Below are positions 11,743 to 61,596 of a DNA stretch of 64,000 nt, in pieces; position 1 is the first letter of the stretch, and each line of letters opens with the position of its first letter. This DNA comes from a virus. The notes below the pieces were generated by a model that was not told where the DNA came from, did no database searches, and saw nothing but the letters and a program-made list of their open reading frames with translations. The DNA lies in IMG/VR virus record IMGVR_UViG_3300047160_003799. One strand, written 5' to 3'. The position numbers were made by a program, and so were the translations under genes.

Positions 11743-11745
11743 TCT

Positions 11746-11895: not shown

Positions 11896-11898
11896 GCC

Positions 11899-39377: not shown

Positions 39378-39741
39378 CGGGAACTGTGTCGCCTGCGGCA
39401 GTGATGTAGAAGATTGTGTTTCCCTCTTGAACTAGCTTATTGTCGAAGTAGTGAAAGGCGAAGAAGTAATCCTTAGCTCCTAGCTTGTGTAGTTCCGCTA
39501 GGACGCTGCCATCTAGTGTAGTGATGTGTGGGTTTTCAAGCACATTGCGGGAGGTTAGTGGATTTTTGGCACGCCCATAGCCGATGCCGTTCATGAGCTT
39601 GGCGCAGAACCGTTTGGTCTGAGCATTGGTGGCTTTGTGCTCTATCTGTCTCTGAAAGTGCAGTATGGCCTGACGAAGCTTCATCTCTTCAAGGTTCGCT
39701 TCCAGTAGCTCTCTGAGCTTGAGGTTGACGTGTTCTCTCAT
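39367..39741 (-). CDS. leader-A family protein (MREHVNLKLRELLEA...), 124 aa
   Basis: ORF track 39367..39759; motif starts at second Met (39741), which abuts the upstream gene stop. Confidence 0.5.
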   Translation of the reverse strand: MREHVNLKLRELLEANLEEMKLRQAILHFQRQIEHKATNAQTKRFCAKLMNGIGYGRAKNPLTSRNVLENPHITTLDGSVLAELHKLGAKDYFFAFHYFDNKLVQEGNTIFYITAAGDTVPDEE

Positions 39742-44084: not shown

Positions 44085-45133
44085 ATCTTCAAGATCCATG
44101 CAGTACGCGCTGCTGGGGCGCCACTGGCTGATGGCATACGCATTGGCGAACCAGGTTCGGTTGCTACCTCGAACGCAAGAACGTAGCAATCAGCTCCGTC
44201 GAAGCGACCCCTGCCGAATACAAGCCGTGCTTGTGTAAGATGGATGCCGATGAGAGAAACGATGTCAACGTGAACATCGTGGATAAAGGGATGTTCAATT
44301 GGAACTTCACTATCACCTGCTGGTGAGAAGCCGTGTAGATTCGCGAGGTCTTCTACTGCGTCCATCGCTGGGAACATGCGATACGAGCGCTTCTCAGCAA
44401 ATTTATTCATAGCGATGATGATTTGAGATTCGATCTTATGAGAGAGGGGGCTCTCTGTAAGACTCTCCTCACGGAAGTCGCTGCCTGAAAGTTGAGGAGG
44501 TGTATCTGGATTACGAGTGAATCTGAGATGACTACCTGTTTTGGAGAGCGAGATGTCTACCTCAATGCCGCCGTCTGGCAGGCGATAGACGATTGCTACG
44601 GTAGCTGCGACCCTTTGTTCCGAAGGTGGGCGATCAACAGGATGAACGCGGATTGGTGACGACACCCTCTGGCGACCTTGGGTCGGGCCAGTCGTATTGC
44701 TACGGAAGCCTGCACGGTTCAACCCATGACCAACTCGTGTATCGTGACCTTGTGCTGCGTCCTTGAGTTCCCGCTCAAGGAAATCGAGGATGTCACGCTC
44801 ATCGTCATTCGGTGCTAGCGCCTCTTCAAGCGGATCCATCTTATGAAGCGAAGTGCGCTGCAGGCGCTTCAAGAAAGCGGCGCGGAAGCCATCCTTGTAG
44901 CCCTGTAGAAAGCGCTCGCTCTCATTGTGGAGATGGCGCATTCTGGCAAAAGCCATGATCGTCTCGTCTTTGGCAAGTCCTTTGATTAGTTGCTTACGTT
45001 GCGCAATGTCCTTTTCAGCAGCGATGTACTCGATGCTCACGGACTTCGACAAGAACTCGCCTGCCTTGTATCCCCTCTTATAGTCGGCATTGTCGCCAGT
45101 AGCTTCGTGGAGCCTAAGAGCATCTCGTATCAT
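44081..45133 (-). CDS. hypothetical protein (350 aa)
   Basis: ORF track. Confidence 0.5.
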   Translation of the reverse strand: MIRDALRLHEATGDNADYKRGYKAGEFLSKSVSIEYIAAEKDIAQRKQLIKGLAKDETIMAFARMRHLHNESERFLQGYKDGFRAAFLKRLQRTSLHKMDPLEEALAPNDDERDILDFLERELKDAAQGHDTRVGHGLNRAGFRSNTTGPTQGRQRVSSPIRVHPVDRPPSEQRVAATVAIVYRLPDGGIEVDISLSKTGSHLRFTRNPDTPPQLSGSDFREESLTESPLSHKIESQIIIAMNKFAEKRSYRMFPAMDAVEDLANLHGFSPAGDSEVPIEHPFIHDVHVDIVSLIGIHLTQARLVFGRGRFDGADCYVLAFEVATEPGSPMRMPSASGAPAARTAWILKI

Positions 45134-45992
45134 AGACCACTATCTGCTGTCTCGGAGAGAAGAGAGCAATGACTTGCCACATCTTCTGAGCCGTGAATGT
45201 GAAGCGGTTGCGATGCTTCTGGTTGATCCTGATAGGCGTGATGATCTCGTTCTCACCGACCTGCTCTGGCGTTGAACCTGGAACTGCTGGGTTGACACGT
45301 GAGCGCCCGAGCGAATCGAAGTTGACACCGTAGATGTCGTAGAGCCCTTGGTCAGTAACAGGGCCAGAAACGCTTGTCGTGAACTGCTGGTGCAAGTACG
45401 CTTGGAATTCTGGATCGTTCACGTCCGCTGGCTTACCCTTCCAGTTGAACGGCGGATATTCTGGTGACGGGTATGGTGGTGGAAGGTTCCTATCGACAGG
45501 CGAGAACGGGTAGTCGGAGAACTCGTTGACGTAGCCTGCTGGCGTTCTCTTTGGCTTGCAGCACGGTGGCTTCGGATAGTCGATTGAAACGACGCACATC
45601 CCGTAGCCGTTCACCGTAGGAATGCTGTTCGGTGTGATGTACCAGAAAAGCTGCTGCCATGGCGAATGAAAACGTACGCTGCCTACAGGAATCGTGAACG
45701 ACTGGACAGGGATGGTCTTTGAGAAAGGGTCAGGCCAATTAGGAATGGCTGTGTCAAGCTCGACGTAAGGCACGTGCTGCTTATCTAGCAGATACTTGAC
45801 CTTATCCATCTCATTCGCATAGACAGCTCTGAACGCCCCATCTAGATCATGGGTCTGCTTGAGCTGGAGCTGCTGGTCGTACTCTTGAACCTGGTTAGTG
45901 ATCGCGAGTTTCTGGCTGTTCCAGGCTTGGTAGGCAGCTTCGAGATTATCTTCGGCAGAGGGCATCGATGATCTCCCTTGGGCTCTCACCAA
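45114..45992 (-). CDS. hypothetical protein (292 aa)
   Basis: ORF track. Confidence 0.5.
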   Translation of the reverse strand: MVRAQGRSSMPSAEDNLEAAYQAWNSQKLAITNQVQEYDQQLQLKQTHDLDGAFRAVYANEMDKVKYLLDKQHVPYVELDTAIPNWPDPFSKTIPVQSFTIPVGSVRFHSPWQQLFWYITPNSIPTVNGYGMCVVSIDYPKPPCCKPKRTPAGYVNEFSDYPFSPVDRNLPPPYPSPEYPPFNWKGKPADVNDPEFQAYLHQQFTTSVSGPVTDQGLYDIYGVNFDSLGRSRVNPAVPGSTPEQVGENEIITPIRINQKHRNRFTFTAQKMWQVIALFSPRQQIVVYDTRCS

Positions 45993-47244
45993 AGATGATC
46001 TTCGCTACGACTGACGAAAGGGACTCACCAAGATCCTTCGGATAGAACCACTTCATTGTTTCGTGACGAAGCTGCTTGTCGTGTCGCCAACGCACTTGAG
46101 CTGCATAAACATACTGATCTGGGTTTCTGACGCCCATACGCGAGAGCCCACCCTTGAGTAGATCTACAAGCCGCTCTGCGACGACTCTGCGCTTCGCAAA
46201 CATCGACCACTTACCATCGCCTGGTACGTTAGGCGTGACTTCTTCGATCTTCCTTCCAGCCGATGAGTGCTTGAGGAGACCGTCAACAAAGGCAGCGTCG
46301 GGACCACCACCAAGGGCGGCGCCTACTCCATGTGTGCTCATAATCTGCGTGCCAAGCGGTCGAAGACCAGACTTCTCTCTGAGCTGCTTGACGTTTTTGA
46401 TCGTGATCCTATAGATAGGTGGCCTATCGTCGCCCTCGACTTCGTGCTGGCGCCTCTGGCTAAAGTTCTCGCACCAACTGTTAGGGCACTTGATGAGCGA
46501 TGGATCGTTCATCTTCTCGTCGGCTGTATTACGAGTACGACGAGCTAGAGGATGGTCACACTTTGGGCAACGGATGTCATCGTCCTGCGCTTCGTCCATA
46601 GCTTCCTGCTTCCCGATGTAGTCAGCTAGCCAGCGAACCTGTTCAAGCGTATGCTGCCCTTTACTCTTGTTAGCTAGATCCTTCTCGACGGCATCCATAT
46701 CACCGTCGTGACTAGCGTATAGGCAAAACACTTCTGCAAAATCTTCTTGCGGATGAGCCTGAGCGTACTTACTGACGAAGCTCGTATCGTTCGGTTTGAC
46801 GCCTGGCTTGCGCTTGTAAACCTTGTGGTAGTCTCCAAACAAGGAGAGGAACTCAGGGCTGCGCCGTACTTCATCAGAGATCTTCTGCGTAAGAAACTTG
46901 TGCCCTAGCTCGTGCATGACCAGGTTGAGCAAGCCACCTTTGACTGAACCTGGAAAGTTCTTATCGCGCTTGTCTAGGTAGACAGGCTGGCCTTGATCTG
47001 ATGCCTCACTGCCACCGCGAGTCGGTTCAATGCGGTAGTCTAGCTCAATACCGAGCCGTTGGAGCTTGGCATCAGCTTCGGCTTTCAAACGCTCCAGCTC
47101 TCTAGGCATCAAGGCGGCTCCTGTTGCAACCACCGACGACCGCAGAGAGCACACCATCGGTTCGGTATGAGATCCTCGTAGTGCTTCTGCTTCGGCTTCT
47201 CTGTTAGAAACGAGCGGACATACATCTCGTGACCTTTGGGGCAA
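45946..47244 (-). CDS. SprT/Wss1-like or DUF4157-like HExxH metallopeptidase-domain protein with Zn-ribbon
   Basis: LLNLVMHELGHKFL plus CPKCDHPLARR...CPNSWC. Confidence 0.45.
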   Translation of the reverse strand: MPQRSRDVCPLVSNREAEAEALRGSHTEPMVCSLRSSVVATGAALMPRELERLKAEADAKLQRLGIELDYRIEPTRGGSEASDQGQPVYLDKRDKNFPGSVKGGLLNLVMHELGHKFLTQKISDEVRRSPEFLSLFGDYHKVYKRKPGVKPNDTSFVSKYAQAHPQEDFAEVFCLYASHDGDMDAVEKDLANKSKGQHTLEQVRWLADYIGKQEAMDEAQDDDIRCPKCDHPLARRTRNTADEKMNDPSLIKCPNSWCENFSQRRQHEVEGDDRPPIYRITIKNVKQLREKSGLRPLGTQIMSTHGVGAALGGGPDAAFVDGLLKHSSAGRKIEEVTPNVPGDGKWSMFAKRRVVAERLVDLLKGGLSRMGVRNPDQYVYAAQVRWRHDKQLRHETMKWFYPKDLGESLSSVVAKIIFGESPREIIDALCRR

Positions 47245-47336: not shown

Positions 47337-47816
47337 TCATGGCCGTGGTTGTCGTAGCTGTACTAGTCCAGCAGGAGGCGGTGGAATAGAGTGAGCAATG
47401 ATCTCAAGCGTCTGGTGGAATGGAGCGTGTGAGATGTCGAATACGGTGTGGTCGCGCCATAGGCGGAACGGAAAATTGTTGCCTGTCGCGTACTCTATAG
47501 TCCACACAGAATTGGCATAGTGAAACGTGATCTCGCCAACAACCGAACCTCCAGGGGGCGGAAGATAGGATGGTCTTGTCGTTGTAAGAAGTCTGACGAA
47601 GTCAAGGATCCAGTCAAGTTGAATGCTTCTGTAAGGGTTACGGTAAGGCAAAACAGGATTGTCATACTGGATCCTAGCCGCTATCCGAGCGATTCGCATC
47701 GGATGCGTTGGATCTTGGAGCCAGTGCTTGAGGGCTTGCTCCGTTCGATAGCTGATAGCTTCTAGGAGCGTAAGCCTGACGTTCTCACTCATCGAAGCTC
47801 CTAGTAGGAGTACCAA
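47337..47816 (-). CDS. hypothetical protein (159 aa)
   Basis: ORF track. Confidence 0.5.
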   Translation of the reverse strand: MVLLLGASMSENVRLTLLEAISYRTEQALKHWLQDPTHPMRIARIAARIQYDNPVLPYRNPYRSIQLDWILDFVRLLTTTRPSYLPPPGGSVVGEITFHYANSVWTIEYATGNNFPFRLWRDHTVFDISHAPFHQTLEIIAHSIPPPPAGLVQLRQPRP

Positions 47817-48703
47817 ACAGATTCGTCTGGTGGGGCGCCGTCTGCCTGCACTTCAACGGCGAACTCCCCATAAAGTGAACGAAAGATACGGATATCGGTA
47901 CGAAGACCCGTCAAGGTAATGTGATTGCCCCAGACCTGGTGCCAGATACCTGCTGGCTTAGTTTCGTCATCGTGGAAGAAGCCGAAGACTTCGTGAAGAA
48001 GATCATGCAAGGTGTCGAATGCAGCTTCTTCATTACTTGACGGCGCATGTTTCATCCATACGAGGATACCAGTAGCGAGCTTGCCGAAGAAGCCTGGATC
48101 CACTGGATCAAATCTCGGTTGAGAAGGGATCTTGACCTTCGCCTTGATCTCTGTGATCGGCTTGGCAAGCGGGCGTGCCCAGCGCTTGACCTTATCCTGC
48201 TCACCTACGACAGAATGGCTGTATACGAGGATGTAGTTAGATGATTCTGGAATGAAGTTGAAGGTGATCTCCGTATCACTGTTCGGAACGGCTGGAGTCA
48301 GCTTGACGCGAATGGAGAACTTTGCGCCAATAGCCTTCTCACTCGTTACCTTGAAACCATTGGCGTTTGCGATACCGTTGATTTCTTGGAGAACAGCGTT
48401 TTCATCCATCCCTTTCGTCTTCTCAGCAATGGCACGAAGCTTATCTTTGAGATCATTCTCGAATCTCAGATCGCGCGCAGCCTCTTCTTGTGGCTTGTGC
48501 TGTTCCTTTTCTCTTTCTTTCGCTTTGTCTGCCATCCACTGAGCCCAGAGCGCCTTGGCACAGCCAGGACAAATGCCGTGCGTTGTCGGTTCTCCCTTTG
48601 TCGTACCACCAGGGAGATCCAGATCAACTTTGCACCAGGCACAGATCTTCTTGGCCTCTAGCAAGAGCTTGAGCTTGAGCCCTACGTGTTCGCGCTCCCG
48701 CAT
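47801..48703 (-). CDS. leader-A family protein with Zn knuckle (MREREHVGLKLKLLLEAKKICAWC...CPGC)
   Basis: ORF track. Confidence 0.55.
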   Translation of the reverse strand: MREREHVGLKLKLLLEAKKICAWCKVDLDLPGGTTKGEPTTHGICPGCAKALWAQWMADKAKEREKEQHKPQEEAARDLRFENDLKDKLRAIAEKTKGMDENAVLQEINGIANANGFKVTSEKAIGAKFSIRVKLTPAVPNSDTEITFNFIPESSNYILVYSHSVVGEQDKVKRWARPLAKPITEIKAKVKIPSQPRFDPVDPGFFGKLATGILVWMKHAPSSNEEAAFDTLHDLLHEVFGFFHDDETKPAGIWHQVWGNHITLTGLRTDIRIFRSLYGEFAVEVQADGAPPDESVWYSY

Positions 48704-48743: not shown

Positions 48744-49667
48744 TCATCTCTTCTTCCAGTTGAGCTTCTGGCCGCTGAGATGCTCCACGAGCGCGACGAC
48801 ATCCTCTTCTGGTATTCCAGTGATCTTGGCTACCCGTTCCACAGCCATGCGAATACCGCGCTCGTTCCAGCCCTCGCGTCCAGCTATGATCTTGAAGTGC
48901 CCGTAGACATCGAGTGCTTTCATAGCGTCGTAACGTTGTGAAGCTGGAAGAGGAGCTGGAGCGGGCGAGGGCGTTTGCTTTTTCTTCTTCTTGTCATCAC
49001 CATTGCCTAGATCAGTCTTGACGGACTCCAACAGTTGCTTGAGCTTGAGGCCGACGTACTCGCGGCTTTCATCTTGCTCTTTAGGTGAGATGTCTTTCAT
49101 GTGACTTACTCTCGGTTGACCATAGCGAAGAAGCCCAAACAGTTGTGTGAGCTTGTGCTGTGGATTCGTTGGCTGTTTGCCTACTATCGGCCTAACAAGA
49201 CCTGTGCTACCGAAGTCAGGCTCAAACGGATTCGAGAAGAACCACTGAACCAGCTTGAGCCATTCGCTCTTATCGCTTGGCTTGGTCACAGAGTTCATGA
49301 TCTTCGACATACCAGAAGCAAGCTGGAACTCGATGCCATGAGCCTGTGCAATGTCGGATGGGTGCATTCCATTGAGGATGTCCTTAGCGATACGAGCTAG
49401 CTTAGGAATAGGGAGCGCACGGGCTTGATCCTCGATCTCCGCTTTAGGCTCTCTGATTGTTCTTCGAGTAAGCGCGCTACTTTTTGCTTTCGTTGCTCGA
49501 TCATAGAGCATCTTGACGAACTTCGGTGATACACCTTCCTTAGCGGCGATCTCCTCGACAGTCTCGCCAGCATGAATGCGACTCATGACCTCATCTCTAT
49601 CGAGTGGCTTTTTCTTTTCCTCCGCTTCGAGCAGCTCCATGAGCTTGAGGTAGACGCTTTCTTTCAT
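48744..49667 (-). CDS. leader-A family protein with HTH-like segment and a second internal leader-A copy (res ~201-215)
   Basis: ORF track; MKESVYLKLMELLEA at N-terminus and SREYVGLKLKQLLESV internally (DNA ~49022-49067). Confidence 0.55.
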   Translation of the reverse strand: MKESVYLKLMELLEAEEKKKPLDRDEVMSRIHAGETVEEIAAKEGVSPKFVKMLYDRATKAKSSALTRRTIREPKAEIEDQARALPIPKLARIAKDILNGMHPSDIAQAHGIEFQLASGMSKIMNSVTKPSDKSEWLKLVQWFFSNPFEPDFGSTGLVRPIVGKQPTNPQHKLTQLFGLLRYGQPRVSHMKDISPKEQDESREYVGLKLKQLLESVKTDLGNGDDKKKKKQTPSPAPAPLPASQRYDAMKALDVYGHFKIIAGREGWNERGIRMAVERVAKITGIPEEDVVALVEHLSGQKLNWKKR

Positions 49668-51127
49668 GCCTTCCTCCAGTAGCTCAAGTAGTAAACGTCC
49701 TGGTCAGTCGGATTCTCTAGTGTTTCAATCGATGCATGTAGCTCAAGCTGCTTCGTCGCATGACCGCCAGATATAGCGTGGTAGATGTGGACCTTGACCT
49801 TGATCCCTTCCGTCGTCGTGTAATGTTCGAGGAAAAGACTAGTGTGATTGATCTTGGAGTGGAATCTGTACTCCTGTAGCTTGTACTTTGTACTGGTAAC
49901 GAGATCCTCGAACTTCTGGCAGAAGTCGGTGTAGGTCAAGCCTTGCGTCTTGCAAAGGTTCTCGGCGTCATCAATGAGATCTTGTTCATTTGGCTTCAAG
50001 TTCCCAGGCGGCGTGACTAGGTTCTCAGCAAGGTGCTCCTTCAAACTCTTGTGGTAAGCATCGGAGAACCAGGATGGTCCCTTCGCCTCCGCTTGCTTTA
50101 CTGCGGATGAGATAGCTGGCTTCGCTACGAGGATCGGGCGATGGTGCTGCGATGCTATCGCTGTGACCTTGTTCGCCTGCTCGTGGTCAACCCAACGAAG
50201 GACGAGGACAGCATCAGGTATCCGCTCTCCAAGAGTGTTTACAATCTTCGTTGGTGAATCAGACCTTGGGAAGTGCTTGACCTCGAATGAAGACTTGATC
50301 CACTGAGGAATGTCTCTCTCCAAGCCGCCAACGACCATGACGAAAGGCTTGTGCGCATGAGGCCATCCCGTTAGTCCAGTCGATGGAGCCTGCTGAGAAA
50401 TGGCCTTCACTGGCCTCACCCAAGGAGCAGGCTTGAATGGCTCTGGTTCTACGACTACTGTTTGCCCACTAGGCTCATGCGGCGCAACGACTGGCTTGTC
50501 AAAGCTATCCGCTAGATCCATTGCCTTATCGACTTCCTTGGTATGGAAGATCATCCAAGACATGAGAGCGCCGTAATGGATACCGTACTGCTCGCTCACC
50601 TCTTTCATCTTGGCCCAGAGCTGCTCTTTGATTTCCTTTTCAGTTTGCGGTGCGAGCTTATGTGCTCTATACAGCACATCAGCGAACAGCTCTATCCACT
50701 CTTCTTGGGTGAGATGGTCGCCGTAGTAGCTCCAATCTATCGTGCCGTTCTTGAGACCAGCGATGAGTTCCTCCTCAGATGGAAGCGGAGCCCTGAGTGG
50801 TACCTTAGCGGCGTTCGCGATTTCGTCCTCTATCTTTTTCAGGCGTCCCTTAGCGTTCATGAGCTTGGCGCCGTGGTAATCGACCTTCGCTTGCAGCGTC
50901 GATGGATTCTCCTGGGAGAGCGTTATCATCGCAGTGAGATCAGAGGGACGGATGCCAGTCATATGCGCATAGGTGATAGGCGAAACCTTCGCGTAGCCGA
51001 ACTTCTTCGATACGCCGTGCATCGCTGCCAGGTAGGCAAGGTGTTTGATGATCTCCTGCTCTTGTGGATCAGGAGGTTTCGTAGCCTCTAGCAAGGCTCT
51101 GAGCTTGAGTCCTACGAACTCTTTCAT
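49664..51127 (-). CDS. leader-A family protein (487 aa)
   Basis: ORF track; MKEFVGLKLRALLEA. Confidence 0.55.
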   Translation of the reverse strand: MKEFVGLKLRALLEATKPPDPQEQEIIKHLAYLAAMHGVSKKFGYAKVSPITYAHMTGIRPSDLTAMITLSQENPSTLQAKVDYHGAKLMNAKGRLKKIEDEIANAAKVPLRAPLPSEEELIAGLKNGTIDWSYYGDHLTQEEWIELFADVLYRAHKLAPQTEKEIKEQLWAKMKEVSEQYGIHYGALMSWMIFHTKEVDKAMDLADSFDKPVVAPHEPSGQTVVVEPEPFKPAPWVRPVKAISQQAPSTGLTGWPHAHKPFVMVVGGLERDIPQWIKSSFEVKHFPRSDSPTKIVNTLGERIPDAVLVLRWVDHEQANKVTAIASQHHRPILVAKPAISSAVKQAEAKGPSWFSDAYHKSLKEHLAENLVTPPGNLKPNEQDLIDDAENLCKTQGLTYTDFCQKFEDLVTSTKYKLQEYRFHSKINHTSLFLEHYTTTEGIKVKVHIYHAISGGHATKQLELHASIETLENPTDQDVYYLSYWRKA

Positions 51128-51954
51128 AGGATCTGGCCCTCCCGACGAGAGTGCATGTAGTAGGAGGGATTTGTTTGTAGACGACCACCGAAGGCTCCGT
51201 CATGAAGGTTCCCAACCAAGATGTAAGCTTTGGCGAGAGGGAACCAGGACAAGACCAAGATGACCGAACGAGAGTAAATCACTTCAATAGGATCGCTCGT
51301 AAGCATGGGATCAACTGTCTGCGCAAAAATGCCTTGATGTGAAAATGGTTCTGAGAAGTCCCAGGCTTGAGTAACCTCGTGCCACAAGTCAATAGGAACA
51401 TCAGCAAAGGAACGATGGGTGTGCAAGTGCAAGTTGCGCTGTACCCACTGCTCTATCTGATGGCAGAGCTTCTGTTCGCCTGGCGTATTGGTGAAGTTGA
51501 CGGTTTCAGTCTGCTGGCGTTCATGCTGAACGTAACGATAACCTATCTCTTGATCGCCACGATTCACAGGATCGCCGTAGAGCACTGGCTTGCCTTGCTC
51601 GAAGGTCATGGAGTCCAATGCTAGGCGACCCTCCACACGCGCTAGCTGAATGATGCTGCCGTGCCGTCCAGGGCTTTCTGGACTGAGGAGCGGATCCTGC
51701 TGCGCAGCTCTTTCATTACTTACGGCTACTGTCACGAGAATAGTTCGCCCCCTAAGATCACGGCGATGGAGTGCCCGCCCTCGTCCGAAGCCCAAGCTTT
51801 CTGCCAGAATGTGGAGATAACGGAAAACTTCCCCCTGGTGTTCTTGCTTGGCCCAGAGCTGGAGCTTCTTCCTGAGTTCTTCCTCTTCTGGAGTAAGCTT
51901 TGGAGCATCCGCTTCTAGCAGTTGCCTGAGCTTGAGTCCTACGAACTCTTTCAT
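51124..51954 (-). CDS. leader-A family protein (276 aa from MKEFVGLKLRQLLEA)
   Basis: ORF 51124..51972 trimmed to Met preceding the motif. Confidence 0.55.
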   Translation of the reverse strand: MKEFVGLKLRQLLEADAPKLTPEEEELRKKLQLWAKQEHQGEVFRYLHILAESLGFGRGRALHRRDLRGRTILVTVAVSNERAAQQDPLLSPESPGRHGSIIQLARVEGRLALDSMTFEQGKPVLYGDPVNRGDQEIGYRYVQHERQQTETVNFTNTPGEQKLCHQIEQWVQRNLHLHTHRSFADVPIDLWHEVTQAWDFSEPFSHQGIFAQTVDPMLTSDPIEVIYSRSVILVLSWFPLAKAYILVGNLHDGAFGGRLQTNPSYYMHSRREGQIL

Positions 51955-52808
51955 ACTTCCACCCTGAACCAAGGGCTAAAAGCAGCGATGCAGCACCATA
52001 GCTCTTGCCCTGTGTAGGTCTCGTGGCCTGTGAAGGGGTAGTGAGTCCATAGGAGATGAACGTCAGGGTGCGGTTTCTCTGCCTCAAAGTCACGAGTTGG
52101 ACTACCAACAGAATGTGGCTCAATCGCATAATCGCCAACAAGCCACGCTGACGGTCCCTTGTGCCACTTGTCTTCGATTTCTATAGCGCCAGGAAACAAG
52201 TGAAAGTCGCCAGCGACTTTCCGATGCTCGTACTTATAGTGCTTGAATGGATAGCCGATCATCTGGAGGAAGTACTGGAACGCGACCTTGGCAGTACTGC
52301 CATGAACGCGGATGATGGCGGTCGCTAGAGCTTTTGCTTGTATAGTGTCTCTGTTGCGCGATGAGATGTCGTGTATGGTGTCTCCAGTCTTAACAAGCTC
52401 GTCACGCTGAGCCTTCCAAGCGTCATACGCCTCATCAATCGACTGGTTCCTCTTGGCTACGATGGCTGCGTCACGGAGCTTGACGATATCGTTGAGGTAG
52501 TTGGAAGCGGTCAACAGATCGTTCTCATCCCAATCGGGGTATTGCTCACGAACGAATGGGATACCGACCATCTTGAAGTTGTAGATCGTCTCTGGGTAGA
52601 ACGTGAGCTTCTTGCCCGCTGCAAGCTGGCGAAGCCCGAAGGCGATGTCAGTAAGCTTCTCCTTGACCCAGCGAGGATCACGGCTATAGCGCCTGGCTTC
52701 CTGCTTAGAGATCTCGCGCTCGATCTTCTGGATGAAGCGAGCGATGTCGTCGTAGGGCTTGAGCCCATCGAGCAGGCGCTTGAGCTTGAGTCCTACGTGC
52801 TCAATCAT
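51951..52808 (-). CDS. leader-A family protein (285 aa from MIEHVGLKLKRLLDG)
   Basis: ORF 51951..52874 trimmed to Met 52808, which abuts the upstream stop. Confidence 0.55.
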   Translation of the reverse strand: MIEHVGLKLKRLLDGLKPYDDIARFIQKIEREISKQEARRYSRDPRWVKEKLTDIAFGLRQLAAGKKLTFYPETIYNFKMVGIPFVREQYPDWDENDLLTASNYLNDIVKLRDAAIVAKRNQSIDEAYDAWKAQRDELVKTGDTIHDISSRNRDTIQAKALATAIIRVHGSTAKVAFQYFLQMIGYPFKHYKYEHRKVAGDFHLFPGAIEIEDKWHKGPSAWLVGDYAIEPHSVGSPTRDFEAEKPHPDVHLLWTHYPFTGHETYTGQELWCCIAAFSPWFRVEV

Positions 52809-53100
52809 CTTGCACCCCCGCTGGCCGTCCATGAACGACGTTTGCAGCCCATCCTCGCTTCTCGGCTGCAGCAATGGCTCGTTGTATAACCTCTTTGAGC
52901 TTGACGCTGTTCCTGTCCATCAATGGAAACCAGCCAACGCCTCCGAAGATCCCCAAAGTAGGATCGTCCACAGGGAATGGCTCCCACTGGAGCATCGTGC
53001 CTCCACCAGATGGATACCAAACGTGCAGATTGATTGGCTTCCCAGGCGTAGGGTTAGCTTCAATGAGCTGTTTGACCTTCTCTCCAACGCACTCTCTCAT
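52801..53100 (-). CDS. small protein with degenerate leader-A (MRECVGEKVKQLIEA), 99 aa
   Basis: ORF track. Confidence 0.45.
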   Translation of the reverse strand: MRECVGEKVKQLIEANPTPGKPINLHVWYPSGGGTMLQWEPFPVDDPTLGIFGGVGWFPLMDRNSVKLKEVIQRAIAAAEKRGWAANVVHGRPAGVQDD

Positions 53101-53372
53101 GCGCCTGAGTCTCCCGTCGCTATCGTGCTCTTGATGGTCGGCGTGCCTTGAGGATGCTGCTTCGGAACGAACTGCCGTGGTGTCTGAGTCTTGGCCTTCT
53201 GCTTCTGAGCTTGACCCACCTGAGTTGGATCAACTGGTGGCTCTGGCTCTGGTGGTGGTGAGGCTTGCTGAGGAGCTGTTGACGGAGGCACGTTCTGGCC
53301 TTGCTCGATGATGGAGCGAGGGCTTGTGCCAGCGATGATAGCTGCAAGTACTTCGGATAGGTTCATCGCCAA
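53097..53372 (-). CDS. leader-B family small protein (MAMNLSEVLAAIIAGTSPRSIIEQ), Pro/Gln-rich
   Basis: ORF track. Confidence 0.45.
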   Translation of the reverse strand: MAMNLSEVLAAIIAGTSPRSIIEQGQNVPPSTAPQQASPPPEPEPPVDPTQVGQAQKQKAKTQTPRQFVPKQHPQGTPTIKSTIATGDSGA

Positions 53373-55066
53373 GTCTCCTGTCGATCATTGACCCACCAAT
53401 GCCAACGATCATCGGTAGGGCGCGGAGGCTCATCGATCAGGATGATGACGTAGCGTTCTGGCAAGCCCATGAAACGAGAGATCCAACGTTCTTGCTCTGG
53501 AGATCCTCCAGTCTGTCCACGGCGCCAGTTGGCGGCTGCTTCATCGAAAGCATTGACGTGGAAGCAGTGGATGATGGCTCTGTGCCCATCGTTGGTTCGT
53601 GGCTGTGCGAAGAAGACAGAACCAAGATCGCCCTGCGGCTGCGACCCTTGCCTATCCCAGACCGTGTGACTATCAGGTGTGTGCTCGTTCGCCAAGTACC
53701 GAAAATGACGGTGATTCGCTATGTTGGAAATCTCCGTAAATAGGTCAGCGAACGACACGGCGATTCTATAGTTGTGGATCTGGTCGCGGAGCTTGTTGAA
53801 GGCAGAAACAAGGCTTGCCTCGAACGCTGGGCTACGAGCTTCACTCAACTCGTCCTCATAGACGTTGAGCTTGAACTTAGAGGCTAGCGTCTTGCGAATC
53901 TCCTTCGAGATCGTCTCTGGATCTTCCGTCGTATCGACGTGCTCGTAGTTCTCCTGAGTTGGCAGAAGCTCGTGATAGAGCTTCGCAGCCTCGTGCTGGT
54001 AGTGCATCGCGCTCTCCTCTTTGCTCTTGGAGTAGCCGATGTCCATGCCAGAGCCGTAGTAGGTGAGGCCCTTGCCCTTCATGAGCCGTGAGAAGGCGAT
54101 CTCATCGCTTACGTCACAGTGGAAGATGATGTCTGGGCGCCGCATGTCGTGATAGGCCGCTTCGATGATGCCAGGATCGGCACCACGGAGCTTGTCCCTT
54201 ACGAGGCTCGTATAGACATAGCGGTCGGAGAGCACGATAGCGTTGCGCTTGAGCGCAGGTTCGATGACAGTCTCGTAACGTGCTACTAGATCCGAAGCAT
54301 GAATCAAGCTATACATCGTTGGCGTAAGGATGCGCTCGTCCTTCGCCTTTCTGATTGTATCCTTCAAGAGATCGGATGAGGCCCACTTCGTTGTTACGAC
54401 CTCGTGGCCTTGATCCTCAAGCCAGTTGACGAGCGCCTCTACCTGTGTGCTCTTGCCCGCACCGTCTATACCCTCGAAGACAATCAATAGGCCCTTGCCG
54501 CCATCATCGGCAAACATCTTGTCGGCCATGGCGGCAAGGTCCGATGTGTCCTCCGCCTCTTCGACCTTATGTGGGTTGAAAAGCTGGTGAGCAGCCCGAT
54601 AGACGTACTGGTTGCTGTGGAAGGCGAGCTTAGGCAAGTCCTCAAGAGGACACCAATAGCCGTCCTTCAAGTCCGAACCAGATTCGGCCTTCTCGTCGTC
54701 ACGAACTTCGCTGTAGAAGATGTGATCGTGTACGTCTCGGCCAGCTTCGGGGCTCTTACGAACGGTTAGCTTCGTAAGCTCGTCTGGCTTGCGCTTGATT
54801 GCCGTCTCTTCGCCTAGCTCACGGCAAGCGGCTTCTTCGGGGGTCTCGCCGTCGTCAACGTGACCGCCAGCGAAGAGCCACTCTTTGCCGTCCTTGAACC
54901 CGCCCTTGTGTCGGCCTATGAAGGTCTCGATGGCCTTACTAGTCTTACGCAGGAGGATGATGGAGGCGACGTGCTTTGGAGCATCCTTGCGTTCGAGCAG
55001 AGACTCAACAACCGCTGTAGCAGCCGTTCCGTGGAGGATAGAGGAGATCTGCTCGTTGAGGTCCAT
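53363..55066 (-). CDS. Nudix hydrolase - thymidylate (dNMP) kinase fusion protein with leader-B N-terminus
   Basis: Nudix box GGHVDDGETPEEAACRELGEETAI (GX5EX7REUXEEXGU); P-loop LLIVFEGIDGAGKSTQ and DRYVYTS (TMK DRY/F motif); ~200-aa extra C-terminal domain. Confidence 0.7.
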   Translation of the reverse strand: MDLNEQISSILHGTAATAVVESLLERKDAPKHVASIILLRKTSKAIETFIGRHKGGFKDGKEWLFAGGHVDDGETPEEAACRELGEETAIKRKPDELTKLTVRKSPEAGRDVHDHIFYSEVRDDEKAESGSDLKDGYWCPLEDLPKLAFHSNQYVYRAAHQLFNPHKVEEAEDTSDLAAMADKMFADDGGKGLLIVFEGIDGAGKSTQVEALVNWLEDQGHEVVTTKWASSDLLKDTIRKAKDERILTPTMYSLIHASDLVARYETVIEPALKRNAIVLSDRYVYTSLVRDKLRGADPGIIEAAYHDMRRPDIIFHCDVSDEIAFSRLMKGKGLTYYGSGMDIGYSKSKEESAMHYQHEAAKLYHELLPTQENYEHVDTTEDPETISKEIRKTLASKFKLNVYEDELSEARSPAFEASLVSAFNKLRDQIHNYRIAVSFADLFTEISNIANHRHFRYLANEHTPDSHTVWDRQGSQPQGDLGSVFFAQPRTNDGHRAIIHCFHVNAFDEAAANWRRGQTGGSPEQERWISRFMGLPERYVIILIDEPPRPTDDRWHWWVNDRQETWR

Positions 55067-59183: not shown

Positions 59184-60422
59184 CTATTCCTCAGCTATTA
59201 CATTCTTGCCGAAATGAGGGATGAGTGGCTTGCCCATGCAGGTCTTGTGAACGTATATGGGGCGCCCGAACTTCTTGCTTAGCACTTCGAGATGTACTAG
59301 TTGGGACATCATCCCCATGTTGCCACATACCTTGCAGGTACGCTTGCCCTCTGCTTCAAGTAGCTCTTTCAGCTTGATACGTGTGTATTCCATGGTGTGC
59401 TCCTTGAGCATGGCTTGAGCGCAGGCCCATGCGGATTGCCACGTGCGGTGCTTGTGGTTGCACGGCGTATCGCTCTTGCTCAGTCCTGCCCATCCTGAGC
59501 CAGAGTAGTGCCTGACGTGATCCTTGGCCTGTTCCCACGCTTTCTTATCTTTGTCCTCTGACTCGTGTTGAGCTGGAGGCGGTGTAGGTAGCTCGTAGTT
59601 GTATGCGAGGGCACGGACCCAATAGTATGGACCAACGATATCATCAGTCCTATCTGGTTCCTCGAACTCGTTCTCTACATCACGAGGGCGGTGAGGATTG
59701 TATGGATGCTTGTAGATAACTTGTACCATGTGTCGCTGTCGAGCTGTATCCCTGTAAACGATTGCGGTAGCGCTGCTGATGTTGGGATACTTACGCTGTC
59801 TGCGATTCTGTGGGAACTTGATAGAGAAGGCACCGATGCGCAGGCCATGGTCGCGTGGAGCACGCTCGTAGTGCTGTAGTAGCTCTACGAAGCTGTTGAC
59901 ACGTAGCCATTCAGCAATGGAGCTGCGCCCTTGTGGGCCTGGACCCACCTGCGCCATACGTTTCATGGCAGCATCGATGCGTGAAAGCATCTCTTGCTCA
60001 GCAGGCGTTAGCTCTGGCTGCTCACGAGCCTCTTGCACAGGGCGATGCAAGCGTTCCCATGTGGTCCAGTGGTTCGTGCTTACCTGCAGTTCGTATGGTG
60101 CGAGTGCTATGGCATGGCCTGTCGGTGTGCGGAAGAGCAGAACACGACGATCTGGGAAAGGTCGTTCTTCTTGTCGTAGATCTACTTGTGTGAGATACTG
60201 CCAATCCTTTGGAACTTTCCAGATACGGTCTTGAAAGTGTGGACCGTAGAAAGCGTTGTCCACAGCCCAATGGTATAGGCGCTCAGCCATGAGCGGCCCT
60301 TGAGCCCTCTCTTTCGAGAAGGCTTGCAGCCTGGTGATGAGCAGCGTATCCTCTGGCGTTAGCTCTGGCATCTTTCGAGCTTCGAGGAGCTGCCTCAGCT
60401 TGAGGCCAACGTACTCAATCAT
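59184..60422 (-). CDS. leader-A family protein (412 aa from MIEYVGLKLRQLLEA) with second leader-A-like copy (MEYTRIKLKELLEAEG) before a C-terminal Zn-ribbon module
   Basis: ORF 59184..60455 trimmed to Met 60422 (ATGA-coupled to upstream gene); internal copy at ~59349-59393. Confidence 0.55.
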   Translation of the reverse strand: MIEYVGLKLRQLLEARKMPELTPEDTLLITRLQAFSKERAQGPLMAERLYHWAVDNAFYGPHFQDRIWKVPKDWQYLTQVDLRQEERPFPDRRVLLFRTPTGHAIALAPYELQVSTNHWTTWERLHRPVQEAREQPELTPAEQEMLSRIDAAMKRMAQVGPGPQGRSSIAEWLRVNSFVELLQHYERAPRDHGLRIGAFSIKFPQNRRQRKYPNISSATAIVYRDTARQRHMVQVIYKHPYNPHRPRDVENEFEEPDRTDDIVGPYYWVRALAYNYELPTPPPAQHESEDKDKKAWEQAKDHVRHYSGSGWAGLSKSDTPCNHKHRTWQSAWACAQAMLKEHTMEYTRIKLKELLEAEGKRTCKVCGNMGMMSQLVHLEVLSKKFGRPIYVHKTCMGKPLIPHFGKNVIAEE

Positions 60423-60814
60423 GGCTGTCCACCCGCCGTATTGCGCCAATACCAATGCTCAGTGTTCGTCCACATTTCATTGGCGCTGGTATCAGCTAGC
60501 AAACGAATGTAGTGGTCGTTGCCTTGAGGCCAGTATGCAATAGCTACTGCATGATAGGCCGTATCTGGGTTGTGGAAGGCCACACGCTCGTTGAACTCAG
60601 CCTTGGTGTGGAGTGGATCGAATGGAACATCTGTGTTATCTATAGGATCGAAGTCACCAAGAACTTCTTCATGGTGTATCCACATATGTGTGGTCAGTTC
60701 TGTGAGATTGCGAAAACGGCCTTGGATAACTTGATATAGAGCTTTGACGACTTGGCCTGCAAAGCCAGTCGCTTCGAGTATTTGCTTGAGCTTTAGTGAT
60801 ACGTGCTCACGCAT
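60419..60814 (-). CDS. leader-A family protein (MREHVSLKLKQILEA), 131 aa
   Basis: ORF track. Confidence 0.5.
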   Translation of the reverse strand: MREHVSLKLKQILEATGFAGQVVKALYQVIQGRFRNLTELTTHMWIHHEEVLGDFDPIDNTDVPFDPLHTKAEFNERVAFHNPDTAYHAVAIAYWPQGNDHYIRLLADTSANEMWTNTEHWYWRNTAGGQP

Positions 60815-61165: not shown

Positions 61166-61596
61166 GTGACATCTTCCCTTCGTGTCCACGAGTATACGGT
61201 GTAACCGCCTTCTGGCAGTGCCCCTGGGTCATCTGCTTCTATGTAGTCAAACAAATAGACCCAGCCGTATTCCTCCCGTCGTGCATGACGTGTAAGTATG
61301 AACGTGGCGTCGGGGGATAGATCATCTATCCGCCAGACAATGCGTGGGCGCAGTGAGTTGATGTAGCTATCTCTGTTGAACAGAGGAACAGAGAGAGCTT
61401 CATTGTGTGCGAAACCATACTCGCGGCTAGTGAGTATGTTCCCCAGCTCGTCATGTTCCCAGCCCTGCGGCTTCTCTATCAGGGCCTTGATCCTGTTCTT
61501 TAGCTGCTGCTCCCATTTGTTCGCAGCTTGATGTTTTGGCCTACGCCCAGCTTCGAGCAATGCTCTGAGCTTGAGGTTGACGAACTCGATTGACAC
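61162..61596 (-). CDS. leader-A family protein (MSIEFVNLKLRALLEA), 144 aa
   Basis: ORF track. Confidence 0.5.
   Translation of the reverse strand: MSIEFVNLKLRALLEAGRRPKHQAANKWEQQLKNRIKALIEKPQGWEHDELGNILTSREYGFAHNEALSVPLFNRDSYINSLRPRIVWRIDDLSPDATFILTRHARREEYGWVYLFDYIEADDPGALPEGGYTVYSWTRREDVT

What the first reader, a model, noticed from the sequence alone, without database searches (positions are those of the whole stretch)
49022..49067. Internal second copies of leader A exactly at domain junctions inside two proteins
Gene 48744..49667 carries MKESVYLKLMELLEA at its N-terminus and ...HMKDISPKEQDESREYVGLKLKQLLESV at residues ~190-216, with a Met just before the copy. Gene 59184..60422 carries MEYTRIKLKELLEAEGKRTCKVCGN ~69 aa before its C-terminus (DNA ~59349-59393). 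This suggests gene fusions, internal processing sites that release C-terminal modules, or the leader-coding DNA acting as a recombination joint for domain shuffling.
Basis: seen in the sequence. Interest (0 to 1): 0.6.

Follow-up and report, generated by a model that had tools for sequence, protein, structure and literature searches.

The report
Leader-tagged gene modules fused in-frame
Two proteins of an uncultivated soil phage carry internal copies of a 15-residue peptide that normally begins a dozen neighbouring genes, and the only known relative shows these copies mark where separate peptide-headed gene units were joined into one protein; this is real cassette-style protein evolution, but what the peptide does is still unknown.

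Summary
Leader A (M-[KRI]-E-x-V-x-L-K-L-[KR]-x-L-L-E-A) heads at least 10 minus-strand genes. It recurs inside p307 (aa 201-216, 49020-49067) and p412 (aa 344-358, 59349-59393), far above chance. p412 also has a third, decayed copy (aa 127-133).

An exhaustive profile search found the leader in only one other genome, a related phage (R) from run SRR32120253. In R the same modules occur either free-standing or fused. The p276 body sits behind a 119-aa extension with an intact internal leader. The p143 unit occurs three times inside larger R proteins with decayed leaders. The zinc-ribbon unit again ends a multi-unit protein. R's p307 ortholog diverges within about 15 residues of where the internal leader region begins, and carries a different C-terminal module.

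So the internal copies mark boundaries of leader-headed units joined in frame (confidence about 0.75). All ten junctions keep E-[AS], and nine keep [LIV]-x-E-[AS].

The leader's function is inferred only. The best guess is a T4-like capsid-targeting and cleavage tag (about 0.3). Proteolytic processing, internal initiation at p412 Met344 (AAGGAG 6 nt upstream) and leader-mediated recombination remain untested.

The parts
48744..49667 (-). Gene p307 (307 aa): a two-unit protein made of leader plus LuxR/sigma-r4-like HTH region, then internal leader plus linker plus small helical module
   Evidence: ORF. Identical on 8 contigs. Weak HTH_23 hit. The R ortholog hits Sigma70_r4_2/GerE at 2e-4. Foldseek gives local TraR matches. 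The AF2 model is confident only at aa 21-60 and 250-300.
49620..49667 (-). N-terminal leader A of p307 (MKESVYLKLMELLEAE)
49020..49067 (-). Internal leader A copy of p307 (SREYVGLKLKQLLESV, aa 201-216); this is the finding's coordinates
   Evidence: PSSM 34.8 against a null maximum of 15.7. Sequence checked.
49098..49100 (-). In-frame Met190 (M-K-D) 11 residues before the internal copy; no Shine-Dalgarno core upstream
48927..49019 (-). Lys/Pro-rich linker after the internal leader (aa 217-247, KTDLGNGDDKKKKKQTPSPAPAPLPASQRYD)
   Evidence: Sequence. pLDDT below 50 in the AF2 model.
48744..48926 (-). C-terminal three-helix module of p307 (aa 248-307); no counterpart in the 17 kb of the relative that was recovered
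   Evidence: pLDDT 73-88. No BLAST match in the R contigs.
59184..60422 (-). Gene p412 (412 aa): a three-unit protein
60375..60422 (-). N-terminal leader A of p412 (MIEYVGLKLRQLLEAR)
60024..60044 (-). Decayed leader at the unit 1/unit 2 junction of p412 (RPVQEAR, aa 127-133); conserved in the R ortholog as RPVIEEAR
59889..60023 (-). Start of unit 2 of p412, a diverged repeat of the post-leader part of unit 1 (together with the junction, aa 127-178 matches aa 10-58 at 36.5% identity)
59349..59393 (-). Internal leader A copy of p412 (MEYTRIKLKELLEAE, aa 344-358), starting with Met344
   Evidence: PSSM 19.8. Sequence checked.
59400..59405 (-). AAGGAG Shine-Dalgarno-like hexamer 6 nt upstream of the Met344 codon
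   Evidence: Only 2 of 44 internal in-frame ATGs in the ten leader genes have a 5-nt or longer SD core at 4-10 nt spacing.
59184..59348 (-). Zinc-ribbon-like unit (CxxC...HKxC) after the internal leader of p412
   Evidence: 49% identical over 37 aa to the C-terminal unit of R protein P0018.
61546..61596 (-). Leader A of p143, the free-standing version of a unit that is internal in three places in the relative
60767..60814 (-). Leader A of p131
53053..53100 (-). Leader A of p99, a single unit here; its R ortholog carries an extra unit after SILEAR
52761..52808 (-). Leader A of p285
51907..51954 (-). Leader A of p276, free-standing here; fused behind a 119-aa extension in R protein p391
51080..51127 (-). 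Leader A of p487; shares a 29-nt exact run with the leader of adjacent p276
48650..48703 (-). Leader A of p300 (MREREHVGLKLKLLLEAK), followed by a CxxC zinc-ribbon-like motif
39694..39741 (-). Leader A of p124, an outlying member about 9 kb from the main array

Best explanation
Leader A is a lineage-specific 15-residue peptide tag, M-[KRI]-E-[FHY]-V-x-L-K-L-[KR]-x-L-L-E-A. It is selected at the protein level. It heads many otherwise unrelated small proteins (HTH, zinc-ribbon and unknown bodies) in two operon-like, fast-changing gene arrays of an uncultivated soil phage.

The internal copies are the heads of such leader-plus-body units joined in frame to the unit before them. p307 has two units. 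p412 has three: an intact leader, a decayed leader, then an intact leader with a zinc ribbon.

Shown:
- The internal copies are real and non-random.
- They sit at module boundaries.
- The same modules are free-standing in one genome and internal in the other.
- When a leader is internal, its N-terminal half decays but the tail [LIV]-x-E-[AS] persists.

Inferred, in order of my belief:
(a) The leader is a sorting and processing tag analogous to the T4 capsid-targeting sequence. It would bind a common partner and be cut after the Glu of L-L-E|A by a prohead-type protease. Internal copies or remnants would then be cleavage points that release the downstream unit. I put this at about 0.3.
(b) In p412 the last unit is additionally, or instead, translated on its own from Met344. 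I put this at about 0.25.
(c) Similarity among leader-coding sequences lets whole units be exchanged in frame between genes. I put this at about 0.3.

The confidence value given applies to the fusion and module-boundary claim only.
For: Statistics: internal copies score 34.8 and 19.8 against a null maximum of 15.7.

Protein-level selection: first and second codon positions are conserved while third positions vary, and the common CTC-AAG-CTC matches the genome's preferred codons.

The leader is attached to unrelated bodies: paralogy among the ten proteins is confined to the leader, plus about 45 further residues in one subgroup.

Distribution: a profile search of 1.84 billion representative proteins finds the leader only in this phage and one relative. 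The relative's contigs L121 and L120 are syntenic with window 44-55 kb and 59-64 kb.

Split versus fused versions:
- R p391 is a 119-aa extension plus RKEFVGLKLKELLEAE (PSSM 43.2) plus a body 36% identical to free-standing W p276 (E 3e-40). There is no start codon at that leader.
- W p143 matches internal units at R p447 150-256 and at R p319t 134-235 and 264-319 (E 1e-10 to 3e-11).
- The zinc-ribbon unit is C-terminal in both W p412 and R p447.
- W p99 corresponds to R p216 aa 1-98, after which R continues with SILEAR and another unit.

Breakpoints at junctions: W p412 and R p319t align at 48% identity up to WER..RPV.EAR and then diverge. W p307 and R p314 align over aa 1-140; by eye a weaker resemblance continues to about aa 185. 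R then carries a module related to the C-terminus of W p487.

Junction motif: 10 of 10 junctions keep E-[AS] and 9 of 10 keep [LIV]-x-E-[AS]. Of 27 occurrences of the latter in 5305 residues, 15 are N-terminal leaders, 9 are junctions and only 3 lie elsewhere. In the bodies there are 3 against 8.2 +/- 2.8 expected (P 0.035). Asp, Gln and reversed control motifs, non-leader proteins and leader-B proteins show no depletion.

Architecture: in p307 each leader is followed by a low-confidence linker and then a confident small helical domain.

Internal start in p412: AAGGAG lies 6 nt before Met344, and only 2 of 44 internal ATGs have such a core.

Precedent: T4 internal proteins are diverse cargo sharing only a 10-residue N-terminal targeting sequence, cut after L/I-x-E, first seen as a Glu-Ala bond (PMC9026906, PMC3012670).
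Against: - Only one relative exists, from a single assembly, so every comparison is a two-genome comparison.
- No free-standing version of the p307 C-terminal module was found.
- There is no trace of a recent frameshift or lost stop codon at either junction. Alternative frames are closed upstream. The direction of change (fusion, or fission of an ancestral multi-unit protein) is therefore not resolved.
- The function of the leader is unproven. The 64-kb window and 17 kb of the relative contain no capsid, scaffold or prohead-protease gene.
- The leader is not a classical amphipathic helix by hydrophobic moment. AF2 confidence on it is low.
- The plain T4-type motif [LIV]-x-E is not depleted in the bodies (54 against 61). 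The depletion test for the longer motif was post hoc and is marginal.
- The persistent E-A-R/K could simply be the first residues of the following domain.
Confidence: 0.75

Rival explanations
1. Ancestral polyproteins. Multi-unit proteins with a leader at every unit start are the original state, cut at [LIV]-x-E|A into separate products. Free-standing leader genes arose by fission, and their Met is a later addition.
For: Multi-unit proteins exist in both genomes: W p412 and p307, and R p447, p319t, p391 and p216. The cleavage-like tail is the most persistent part of every junction. The motif is rare inside the bodies.
Against: Most leader genes in both genomes are single units whose Met sits exactly at leader position 1 or 2. 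Internal leaders are usually decayed, whereas a functional targeting element at each unit should be kept. No protease was identified. Polyproteins are unusual in tailed phages (background knowledge).
Confidence: 0.2
2. Nested genes. The internal copies head separately translated proteins made from internal in-frame starts (Met344 in p412, Met190 in p307), as with other in-frame internal starts in phage genes.
For: Met344 lies at leader position 2, exactly as in the R ortholog's own N-terminus (MEFVSLKLK). AAGGAG lies 6 nt upstream, and only 2 of 44 internal ATGs have an SD core, against 6 of 10 annotated starts with a core of 4 nt or more. T4 gene 21 has an essential internal start at Met45 (PMC9026906).
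Against: p307 Met190 has no SD core and lies 11 residues before the leader. The R p391 internal leader has no ATG, GTG or TTG at its head. The decayed junctions have no Met. The AAGGAG also simply encodes Lys-Glu.
Confidence: 0.25
3. The leader-coding DNA is itself the agent. Homologous recombination between leader copies moves or swaps whole units in frame, as PeSL cassettes do for T4-type ORFans, and the internal copies are recombination scars.
For: Gene order and content inside the arrays differ between the two phages while the flanks are syntenic. Units are exchanged exactly at junctions, as in W p412 against R p319t and W p307 against R p314. The adjacent p276 and p487 leaders share a 29-nt exact run. 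T4-type recombination needs less than 50 bp of homology (PMC2839356).
Against: The internal copies share at most 13 nt of exact identity with any other copy, and overall 50-67%. Third positions vary freely. Identical synonymous codons between orthologous leaders are 31/52, against 224/476 in bodies, which is not clearly higher. Leader-to-leader exchange cannot by itself create the first internal leader.
Confidence: 0.3
4. There is no tag function. The leader is just the first structural element of a paralogous N-terminal domain, and the internal copies reflect ordinary tandem domain duplication.
For: One subgroup (p276, p412 units 1 and 2, p487, p124, R p272, R p319t) shares about 45 further residues after the leader. 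The low-confidence p412 model repeats a helix-helix-helix-strand-strand-strand pattern in units 1 and 2.
Against: The same leader heads at least seven body types with no detectable similarity: HTH, zinc ribbon, DUF4379, p143-type, p131, p285 and p99. The leader is usually followed by a variable Pro- or charge-rich linker. A second peptide, leader B, behaves the same way and also occurs at C-termini.
Confidence: 0.12
5. The conserved sequence is an RNA- or DNA-level signal at gene starts (translation-initiation region, protein-binding site), and the peptide is incidental.
For: It lies at the first 45 nt of many genes that overlap their upstream neighbour by ATGA.
Against: Amino acids are conserved through synonymous changes, for example CTC GAA, CTA GAG and TTG GAG. 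Two intact internal copies (p307 and R p391) lie in mid-ORF with no start codon at their head. Rfam and RNA folding were not run, so this rests on codon patterns only.
Confidence: 0.04
6. Chance match or assembly artefact.
For: The core V-x-LKLK-x-LLEA-like string occurs by convergence in many unrelated proteins such as amidases, aspartokinase and triosephosphate isomerase.
Against: Scores are far above the shuffle null within this proteome. The ORF is identical on 8 independent contigs. A related genome has the same kind of internal copies.
Confidence: 0.01

Closest known systems
T4 capsid-targeting sequence (CTS) of internal proteins IPI/II/III and Alt, removed by prohead protease gp21
   Same: A short N-terminal peptide is shared by otherwise unrelated, fast-evolving small proteins clustered in a variable locus. 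The peptide ends in [L/I]-x-E followed by Ala, the gp21 cleavage pattern. A variable body follows (PMC9026906, PMC3012670).
   Different: No detectable sequence relation was established. Here the peptide is 15 aa rather than 10. There are 12 or more carriers plus a second peptide type. The copies also occur inside ORFs as unit joints, which is not described for the T4 CTS. Packaging, cleavage and a gp21-like protease are all undemonstrated here.
N-terminal propeptides of giant-phage inner-head/ejection proteins (SPN3US gp53/gp54 share MANFVKSKLARESVE; phiKZ gp93 is cut at SLE-13)
   Same: An identical 15-residue N-terminus is shared by paralogous head proteins. It contains x-x-E cleavage motifs, and the families expand and contract between phages (PMC5694885).
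   Different: By eye they share M..FV..KL with leader A, but my PSSM scores them -12 and -9, so no significant similarity. Those proteins are true paralogs (pfam12699), whereas leader-A bodies are mostly unrelated. No pfam12699 hit was found here.
PeSL promoter/stem-loop cassettes mediating modular shuffling in T4-type hyperplastic regions
   Same: A repeated conserved sequence at the start of each ORFan in a hyperplastic region. Differences between related phages are insertions, deletions or replacements bounded by the repeat (PMC2839356, PMC4122927).
   Different: PeSLs are intergenic promoter-terminator elements about 100 bp long. Leader A is coding, about 45 nt, without sigma-70-like promoters (3 found against 12.2 expected). 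An exchange here would be in frame and could build multi-unit proteins.
Viral polyproteins and in-frame nested genes (for example the T4 gene 21 internal start at Met45)
   Same: Several functional units lie in one ORF with a recurrent short motif at each joint. One joint has its own Met and SD.
   Different: No cognate protease or cleavage has been shown. Most units also exist as ordinary separate genes.
Cargo-loading or encapsulation peptides of encapsulins and bacterial microcompartments (from background knowledge, not tested)
   Same: Short terminal peptides plus a flexible linker direct diverse cargo to a protein shell, and they can be N- or C-terminal. Leader B here occurs at both termini.
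   Different: No shell gene is in view, there is no sequence similarity, and those peptides are amphipathic helices, whereas leader A is not by hydrophobic moment.

Membership tests
T4-type capsid-targeting propeptide (CTS) | Short N-terminal peptide shared by otherwise unrelated proteins of one phage | tested here: met
   Ten N-terminal copies in the window and ten in the relative. Bodies are unrelated beyond the leader in most pairs.
T4-type capsid-targeting propeptide (CTS) | Peptide ends in the prohead-protease motif L/I-x-E, with cleavage after Glu | tested here: inconclusive
   The sequence pattern is present: L-L-E-A in most copies, and [LIV]-x-E-[AS] at 15 N-termini and 9 of 10 junctions. 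Actual cleavage cannot be tested in silico.
T4-type capsid-targeting propeptide (CTS) | Phage encodes a gp21-like prohead protease and scaffold core to which the peptide binds | tested here: inconclusive
   None was found among about 50 ORFs scanned against Pfam and PHROGs. The window has no head genes at all, and the genome is incomplete (contig 71.6 kb).
T4-type capsid-targeting propeptide (CTS) | Carrier proteins are present in virions in processed form | not testable with these tools
   Needs virion proteomics.
T4-type capsid-targeting propeptide (CTS) | Sequence homology to the T4 CTS or to giant-phage propeptides | tested here: not met
   SPN3US gp53/gp54 N-termini score -12 and -9 on the leader PSSM. 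There were no PHROG or Pfam hits for the leader proteins. The T4 CTS itself was not compared with a tool.
PeSL-type recombination linker | Repeated conserved DNA at ORFan boundaries in a region that differs between close relatives | tested here: met
   Leader DNA is 50-79% identical between copies, with exact runs up to 29 nt. Array content and order differ between W and R while the flanks are syntenic.
PeSL-type recombination linker | Composite sigma-70 promoter plus stem-loop terminator in intergenic space | tested here: not met
   The repeat is coding, and the genes overlap by ATGA. Promoter-like sites are depleted (3 against 12.2 expected) and terminator-like sites are at chance.
PeSL-type recombination linker | Recombination breakpoints mapped inside the repeat; excised mini-circles | not testable with these tools
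   The two genomes are too diverged (about 59% nt identity in bodies) to map crossovers. Needs population data or inverse PCR.
Protease-processed polyprotein | Several independent functional units in one ORF | tested here: met
   p412 has 3 units, p307 has 2, R p447 has 4, R p319t has at least 3. The units have free-standing homologues.
Protease-processed polyprotein | Conserved cleavage motif at each joint and avoidance of it elsewhere | tested here: inconclusive
   10 of 10 joints have E-[AS]. In the bodies the motif occurs 3 times against 8.2 expected (P 0.035), and controls are not depleted. The test was post hoc and is marginal.
Protease-processed polyprotein | Cognate protease | tested here: inconclusive
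   A Peptidase_Mx-domain gene (45946-47244) adjoins the array, but the relative's homologue covers only the non-peptidase C-terminal half. No other protease is in view.
In-frame nested gene (internal initiation) | Internal in-frame start codon with a ribosome-binding site at proper spacing | tested here: met
   p412 Met344 has AAGGAG, a 6-nt spacer, then ATG. This is not met for p307 Met190 (no SD core) or for R p391 (no start codon).
In-frame nested gene (internal initiation) | Detected separate short product | not testable with these tools
   Needs ribosome profiling or proteomics.

The most novel reading that the evidence does not exclude
The phage maintains an in-frame cassette system. Each small effector body (HTH, zinc ribbon and others) carries a 15-residue leader with two roles. 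As a peptide, it targets the protein to the assembling capsid or another common partner and supplies a [LIV]-x-E|A cleavage site. As DNA, it supplies the homology that lets bodies be swapped, duplicated or strung together into polyproteins that are later cut apart. That would be a coding-sequence analogue of integron or PeSL cassettes, coupled to a delivery signal. A second peptide (leader B), usable at either terminus, would define a second cargo class.
Probability: 0.12. Interest if true: 0.8.

Novelty: new variant of a known kind. Interest (0 to 1): 0.5.

Why it matters
If the leader is a targeting and cleavage tag, this lineage would extend the T4 internal-protein principle (diverse cargo, one short address) in three ways. 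It would have a much larger cargo set, a second tag type, and cargo units concatenated and exchanged in frame. That links protein sorting to a mechanism for rapid diversification of host-takeover or anti-defence proteins. It would also give a ready-made short tag for loading foreign proteins into a non-model phage.

Even without a known function, the two-genome comparison is a clean natural example of gene fusion and fission occurring repeatedly at one recognisable peptide joint. It also shows that naive ORF annotation hides multi-unit proteins. The family is absent from Pfam, PHROGs, GenBank phages, IMG/VR and GTDB genomes. It is so far known from two soil metagenome phages only.

Tried and rejected
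Searches for relatives that found nothing:
- megablast and tblastn of the region and of p307 and p412 against GenBank phages: no match.
- Word-seeded homology search with p307: none.
- The same search with a leader alignment: only a protein from the same contig.
- The same search with the conserved neighbour gene at 45114-45965: only itself and the one relative.
- IMG/VR scans with p307, with a degenerate leader DNA pattern and with the NUDIX-Tmk alignment: nothing.
- Five IMG/VR loci with a related exonuclease gene carry no leader.
- The leader DNA pattern in JGI metagenomes gave 98 hits. All were either this same phage (L016, L033, L095) or unrelated housekeeping proteins with a convergent LKLK.LLEA string.
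- The same was true of the 4 GTDB genome hits.

Ideas tested and dropped:
- Leader as helix 1 of an XRE-type HTH: no HTH_3-like Pfam hit even at E up to 10.
- Leader as a classical amphipathic helix: the hydrophobic moment at 100 degrees is no higher than in shuffles. The N-half alternates with a strand-like period instead.
- Recent frameshift or stop-loss at the junctions: the alternative frames are closed upstream.
- Homology to the SPN3US gp53/54 propeptide: negative PSSM score.

Uninformative results:
- The AF2 model of p412 (mean pLDDT 37.7).
- Foldseek with the p307 model gave only local LuxR/sigma-r4-like HTH matches, none significant.
- The promoter and terminator scan.
- A literature string search for the leader: no paper.
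- The remaining 7.6 kb of the 71.6-kb source contig could not be retrieved.
Full report
**What the window is.** The 64-kb window comes from an uncultivated phage. Genes include:
- a DNA-polymerase exonuclease subunit (phrog_403, 1.8e-81) and a DNA methyltransferase;
- a NUDIX-thymidylate kinase fusion;
- an RNA ligase, a thioredoxin-reductase-like flavoprotein and a 2OG-Fe(II) oxygenase;
- SPFH and VWA proteins.

No head genes are present. Identical proteins occur on short ENA soil-metagenome contigs and on a 71.6-kb JGI contig. There is no close relative among GenBank phages. The best exonuclease match is 46% identical.

**The observation.** On the minus strand, ten genes start with M-[KRI]-E-x-V-x-L-K-L-[KR]-x-L-L-E-A. 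Their starts are at 39741, 48703, 49667, 51127, 51954, 52808, 53100, 60422, 60814 and 61596.

- SREYVGLKLKQLLESV at aa 201-216 of the 307-aa protein (49020-49067), with Met190 upstream;
- MEYTRIKLKELLEAE at aa 344-358 of the 412-aa protein (59349-59393), 69 aa from the end.

A PSSM built only from the N-terminal copies, with the Met column omitted, scores them 34.8 and 19.8. The best score anywhere in 200 shuffled proteomes was 15.7. Nothing else in six frames exceeds 10.4. The 307-aa ORF is identical on eight independent contigs.

p412 holds a third, decayed copy. Residues 127-178 (RPVQEAREQPELTPAEQ...) repeat residues 10-58 (RQLLEARKMPELTPED...) at 36.5% identity.

**Peptide or nucleic acid?** Across the 12 copies, first and second codon positions are conserved and third positions vary. 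The common CTC-AAG-CTC simply matches the preferred Leu and Lys codons. Selection therefore acts on the peptide.

Exact DNA identity between an internal copy and any other copy is at most 13 nt. The only long run (29 nt) is between the adjacent p276 and p487 leaders.

**Relatives.** These searches returned nothing beyond this phage or unrelated proteins with a convergent LKLK.LLEA string:
- word-seeded protein searches;
- IMG/VR scans;
- a degenerate DNA pattern run over JGI metagenomes;
- the same pattern run over GTDB genomes.

An exhaustive HMMER profile search of 1.84 billion representative proteins found 14 hits. Ten are from this phage. Two are ankyrin-like or repetitive false positives (P0015, P0017). 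Three (P0014, P0016, P0018; P0014 lies on the same contig as P0016) are from a second phage, R, in run SRR32120253. Its two contigs are syntenic with window 44-55 kb (L121) and 59-64 kb (L120). Orthologue identity is 35-88%. R carries leader A on ten genes in the same two arrays. A further search with a well-conserved neighbour gene confirmed that only these two genomes are known.

**What the comparison shows**.

1. R p391 consists of three parts:
   - a 119-aa N-terminal extension;
   - an intact internal leader, RKEFVGLKLKELLEAE (PSSM 43.2), with no start codon at its head;
   - a body homologous to free-standing W p276 and R p272 (E 3e-40).

   This is a direct split-versus-fused pair.
2. 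W p143, free-standing with an intact leader, corresponds to internal units in R p447 (aa 150-256) and R p319t (aa 134-235 and 264-319). Their leaders have decayed to SLDEARRRP, VIEEARRRP and PVTEARRRP.
3. The zinc-ribbon unit that follows the internal leader of p412 is also the last unit of R p447, after TLLEAKK (49% identity over 37 aa).
4. W p99 equals the first 98 residues of R p216. R p216 continues with SILEARSQKHEEQ..., a unit also found inside R p447.
5. The orthologues W p412 and R p319t align at 48% identity through unit 1 up to WER..RPV.EAR. After that, different units follow.
6. W p307 and R p314 align over aa 1-140 (38%). By eye a weaker resemblance continues to about aa 185. R then carries a module related to the C-terminus of W p487, in place of the internal leader and p307's C-terminal module.

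The internal leaders therefore sit at module boundaries. Fusion or fission at such boundaries has happened repeatedly in this lineage.

**Anatomy of the two proteins.** A single-sequence AF2 model of p307 is confident only for two small helical domains, aa 21-60 and aa 250-300. Each lies downstream of a leader and a low-confidence linker. The second linker is the Lys/Pro-rich stretch aa 217-247. The first domain looks like a LuxR/sigma-r4-type HTH, on weak evidence:
- weak Pfam hits;
- the R orthologue's hits to Sigma70_r4_2 and GerE at 2e-4;
- local Foldseek matches to TraR.

The p412 model is too poor to use.

**The junction motif.** All ten internal junctions in the two genomes keep E-[AS], and nine keep [LIV]-x-E-[AS]. 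Of 27 occurrences of the latter in the 20 leader proteins (5305 residues), 15 are N-terminal leaders, 9 are junctions and only 3 lie elsewhere.

In the masked bodies the motif is under-represented: 3 observed against 8.2 +/- 2.8 expected, P 0.035. Four kinds of control show no depletion:
- Asp, Gln and reversed versions of the motif;
- 16 non-leader proteins;
- the leader-B proteins.

The plain [LIV]-x-E motif is not depleted. This test was post hoc and marginal, so I treat it as a hint only.

**Mechanism.** What is shown is the modular, fused architecture and the peptide-level conservation of the tag. What the tag does is inferred.

The best analogy is the T4 capsid-targeting sequence. That is a 10-residue N-terminal peptide shared by otherwise diverse internal proteins. 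It binds the scaffold core and is removed by gp21 after L/I-x-E, at a bond first characterised as Glu-Ala (PMC9026906, PMC3012670). Giant phages show the same theme: SPN3US gp53 and gp54 share an identical 15-residue N-terminus containing cleavage motifs (PMC5694885). Under this reading the internal copies or remnants would be cleavage points that release downstream units. I put this at about 0.3, for these reasons:
- no head or protease genes are in view;
- the leader shows no significant similarity to the SPN3US propeptide;
- the leader is not a classical amphipathic helix.

For p412, the internal Met344 with AAGGAG 6 nt upstream also allows separate translation of the 69-aa zinc-ribbon unit. 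Only 2 of 44 internal ATGs have such a core. I put this at about 0.25.

Leader-mediated in-frame cassette exchange is the coding analogue of PeSL shuffling (PMC2839356). It fits the rearranged gene order and the unit swaps at junctions. It is not supported by elevated DNA or synonymous conservation. I put it at about 0.3.

There is no remnant of a recent frameshift at either junction. The direction of change, fusion or fission, is unresolved.

**Verdict.** The fusion and domain-shuffling reading is supported by the only available related genome. The processing and recombination-joint readings remain open. The system resembles known phage targeting-propeptide families but cannot be filed as a member. 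The concatenation of tag-headed units is, as far as I could find, not described for them (one search found no literature match to the motif).

Noticed in passing
window 53298-53372, 54998-55066, 59122-59181, 61924-61983, 40635-40706, 58163-58246 (all minus strand): A second shared N-terminal peptide, 'leader B' (roughly M-[DN]-x-I-x-x-I-[IL]-x-G-x-[ST]-x-x-x-[VI]-[IV]-x-x-L-L-E), heads six further genes. These include the NUDIX-thymidylate kinase fusion and the 946-aa protein. It is conserved on the orthologues in the relative.
   Followed up: partly
window 45946-46017 (-) and 38688-38741 (-); L121 about 8950-9023: Leader-B-like peptides also occur at the extreme C-terminus of two proteins: ...SSVVAKIIFGESPREIIDALCRR* at the end of the Peptidase_Mx ORF, and ...ENLIAQIIAGRDPRSIT*. 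The first is conserved in the relative (...ALAWIIVGKSPREIIDGLCRR). The tag therefore works at either terminus, as cargo-loading peptides do.
   Followed up: partly
window 47757-47792 (-) and 41017-41067 (-): There are shortened or diverged leader-A-like N-termini: MSENVRLTLLEA (MSENVRLKLFEA in the relative) and MRQENLRALSRQLLEVA. The family is therefore larger than the ten clear members.
   Followed up: partly
window 44081-45133 (-) versus L121 9837-11297: The relative's orthologue is 136 aa longer. The extra segment lies between two ESL[TI]E[AS] strings, where the window protein has a single ESLTES. This is another indel bounded by an L-x-E-[AS] motif, outside the leader-A family.
   Followed up: no
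window 49098-49100 (M190 of p307); L121 about 5048-5056: Both intact Met-less internal leaders (W p307 and R p391) are preceded, 11-21 residues upstream, by an in-frame M-[KR]-[DE] (MKD, MRE). This resembles the first three leader residues, as if the leader head had been split by an insertion. The significance is unclear.
   Followed up: partly
window 45946-47244 (-): A gene with a Peptidase_Mx zinc-metallopeptidase domain (E 3.8e-10) lies directly downstream of the leader-A array. In the relative, only the non-peptidase C-terminal half is conserved, and it is split into 67-aa and 224-aa ORFs.
   Followed up: partly
window 51907-51954 and 51080-51127 (-): The leaders of the adjacent genes p276 and p487 share a 29-nt exact run (ATGAAAGAGTTCGTAGGACTCAAGCTCAG). 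This suggests recent duplication or gene conversion between neighbours.
   Followed up: partly
window 55335-55376 (-) and 58297-58320 (-): A 19-bp stem hairpin lies just downstream of the 946-aa gene, and a 9-bp stem lies in the spacer just upstream of it. Sigma-70-like promoters are depleted across 44-64 kb (3 found, 12.2 expected).
   Followed up: no
window 55439-58279 (-): The 946-aa ORFan has a leader-B-like N-terminus, Pro-rich tracts, CxxC zinc-finger-like motifs and a long Gly/Ala run (GGGGGGGGAGGGGGAGGAGGASGAAGGAG).
   Followed up: no
window 1152-1397 (-): An 81-aa protein consists of a Clp_N domain only (precomputed Pfam hit on the matching ENA contig). It could be an adaptor or decoy for host Clp unfoldases, which would be relevant if the leaders were degrons.
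   Followed up: no
window about 2700-30300: Long ORFs on the minus strand here (for example 2695-4980, 18612-19694, 11062-11934) are shadow ORFs. A codon-usage score and family hits show that the coding strand is plus (for example 2689-4200 phrog_2319, 18690-19697 RNA ligase).
   Followed up: yes
window 34838-38242 (-): The 1134-aa protein has a right-handed beta-helix region and several Pro/Ser/Ala-rich 7-residue-period repeats (aa about 67-116, 187-260, 643-700). It is probably a tail fibre or depolymerase. The 63005-63985 product is 69% identical to a fibre-like protein of the relative.
   Followed up: no
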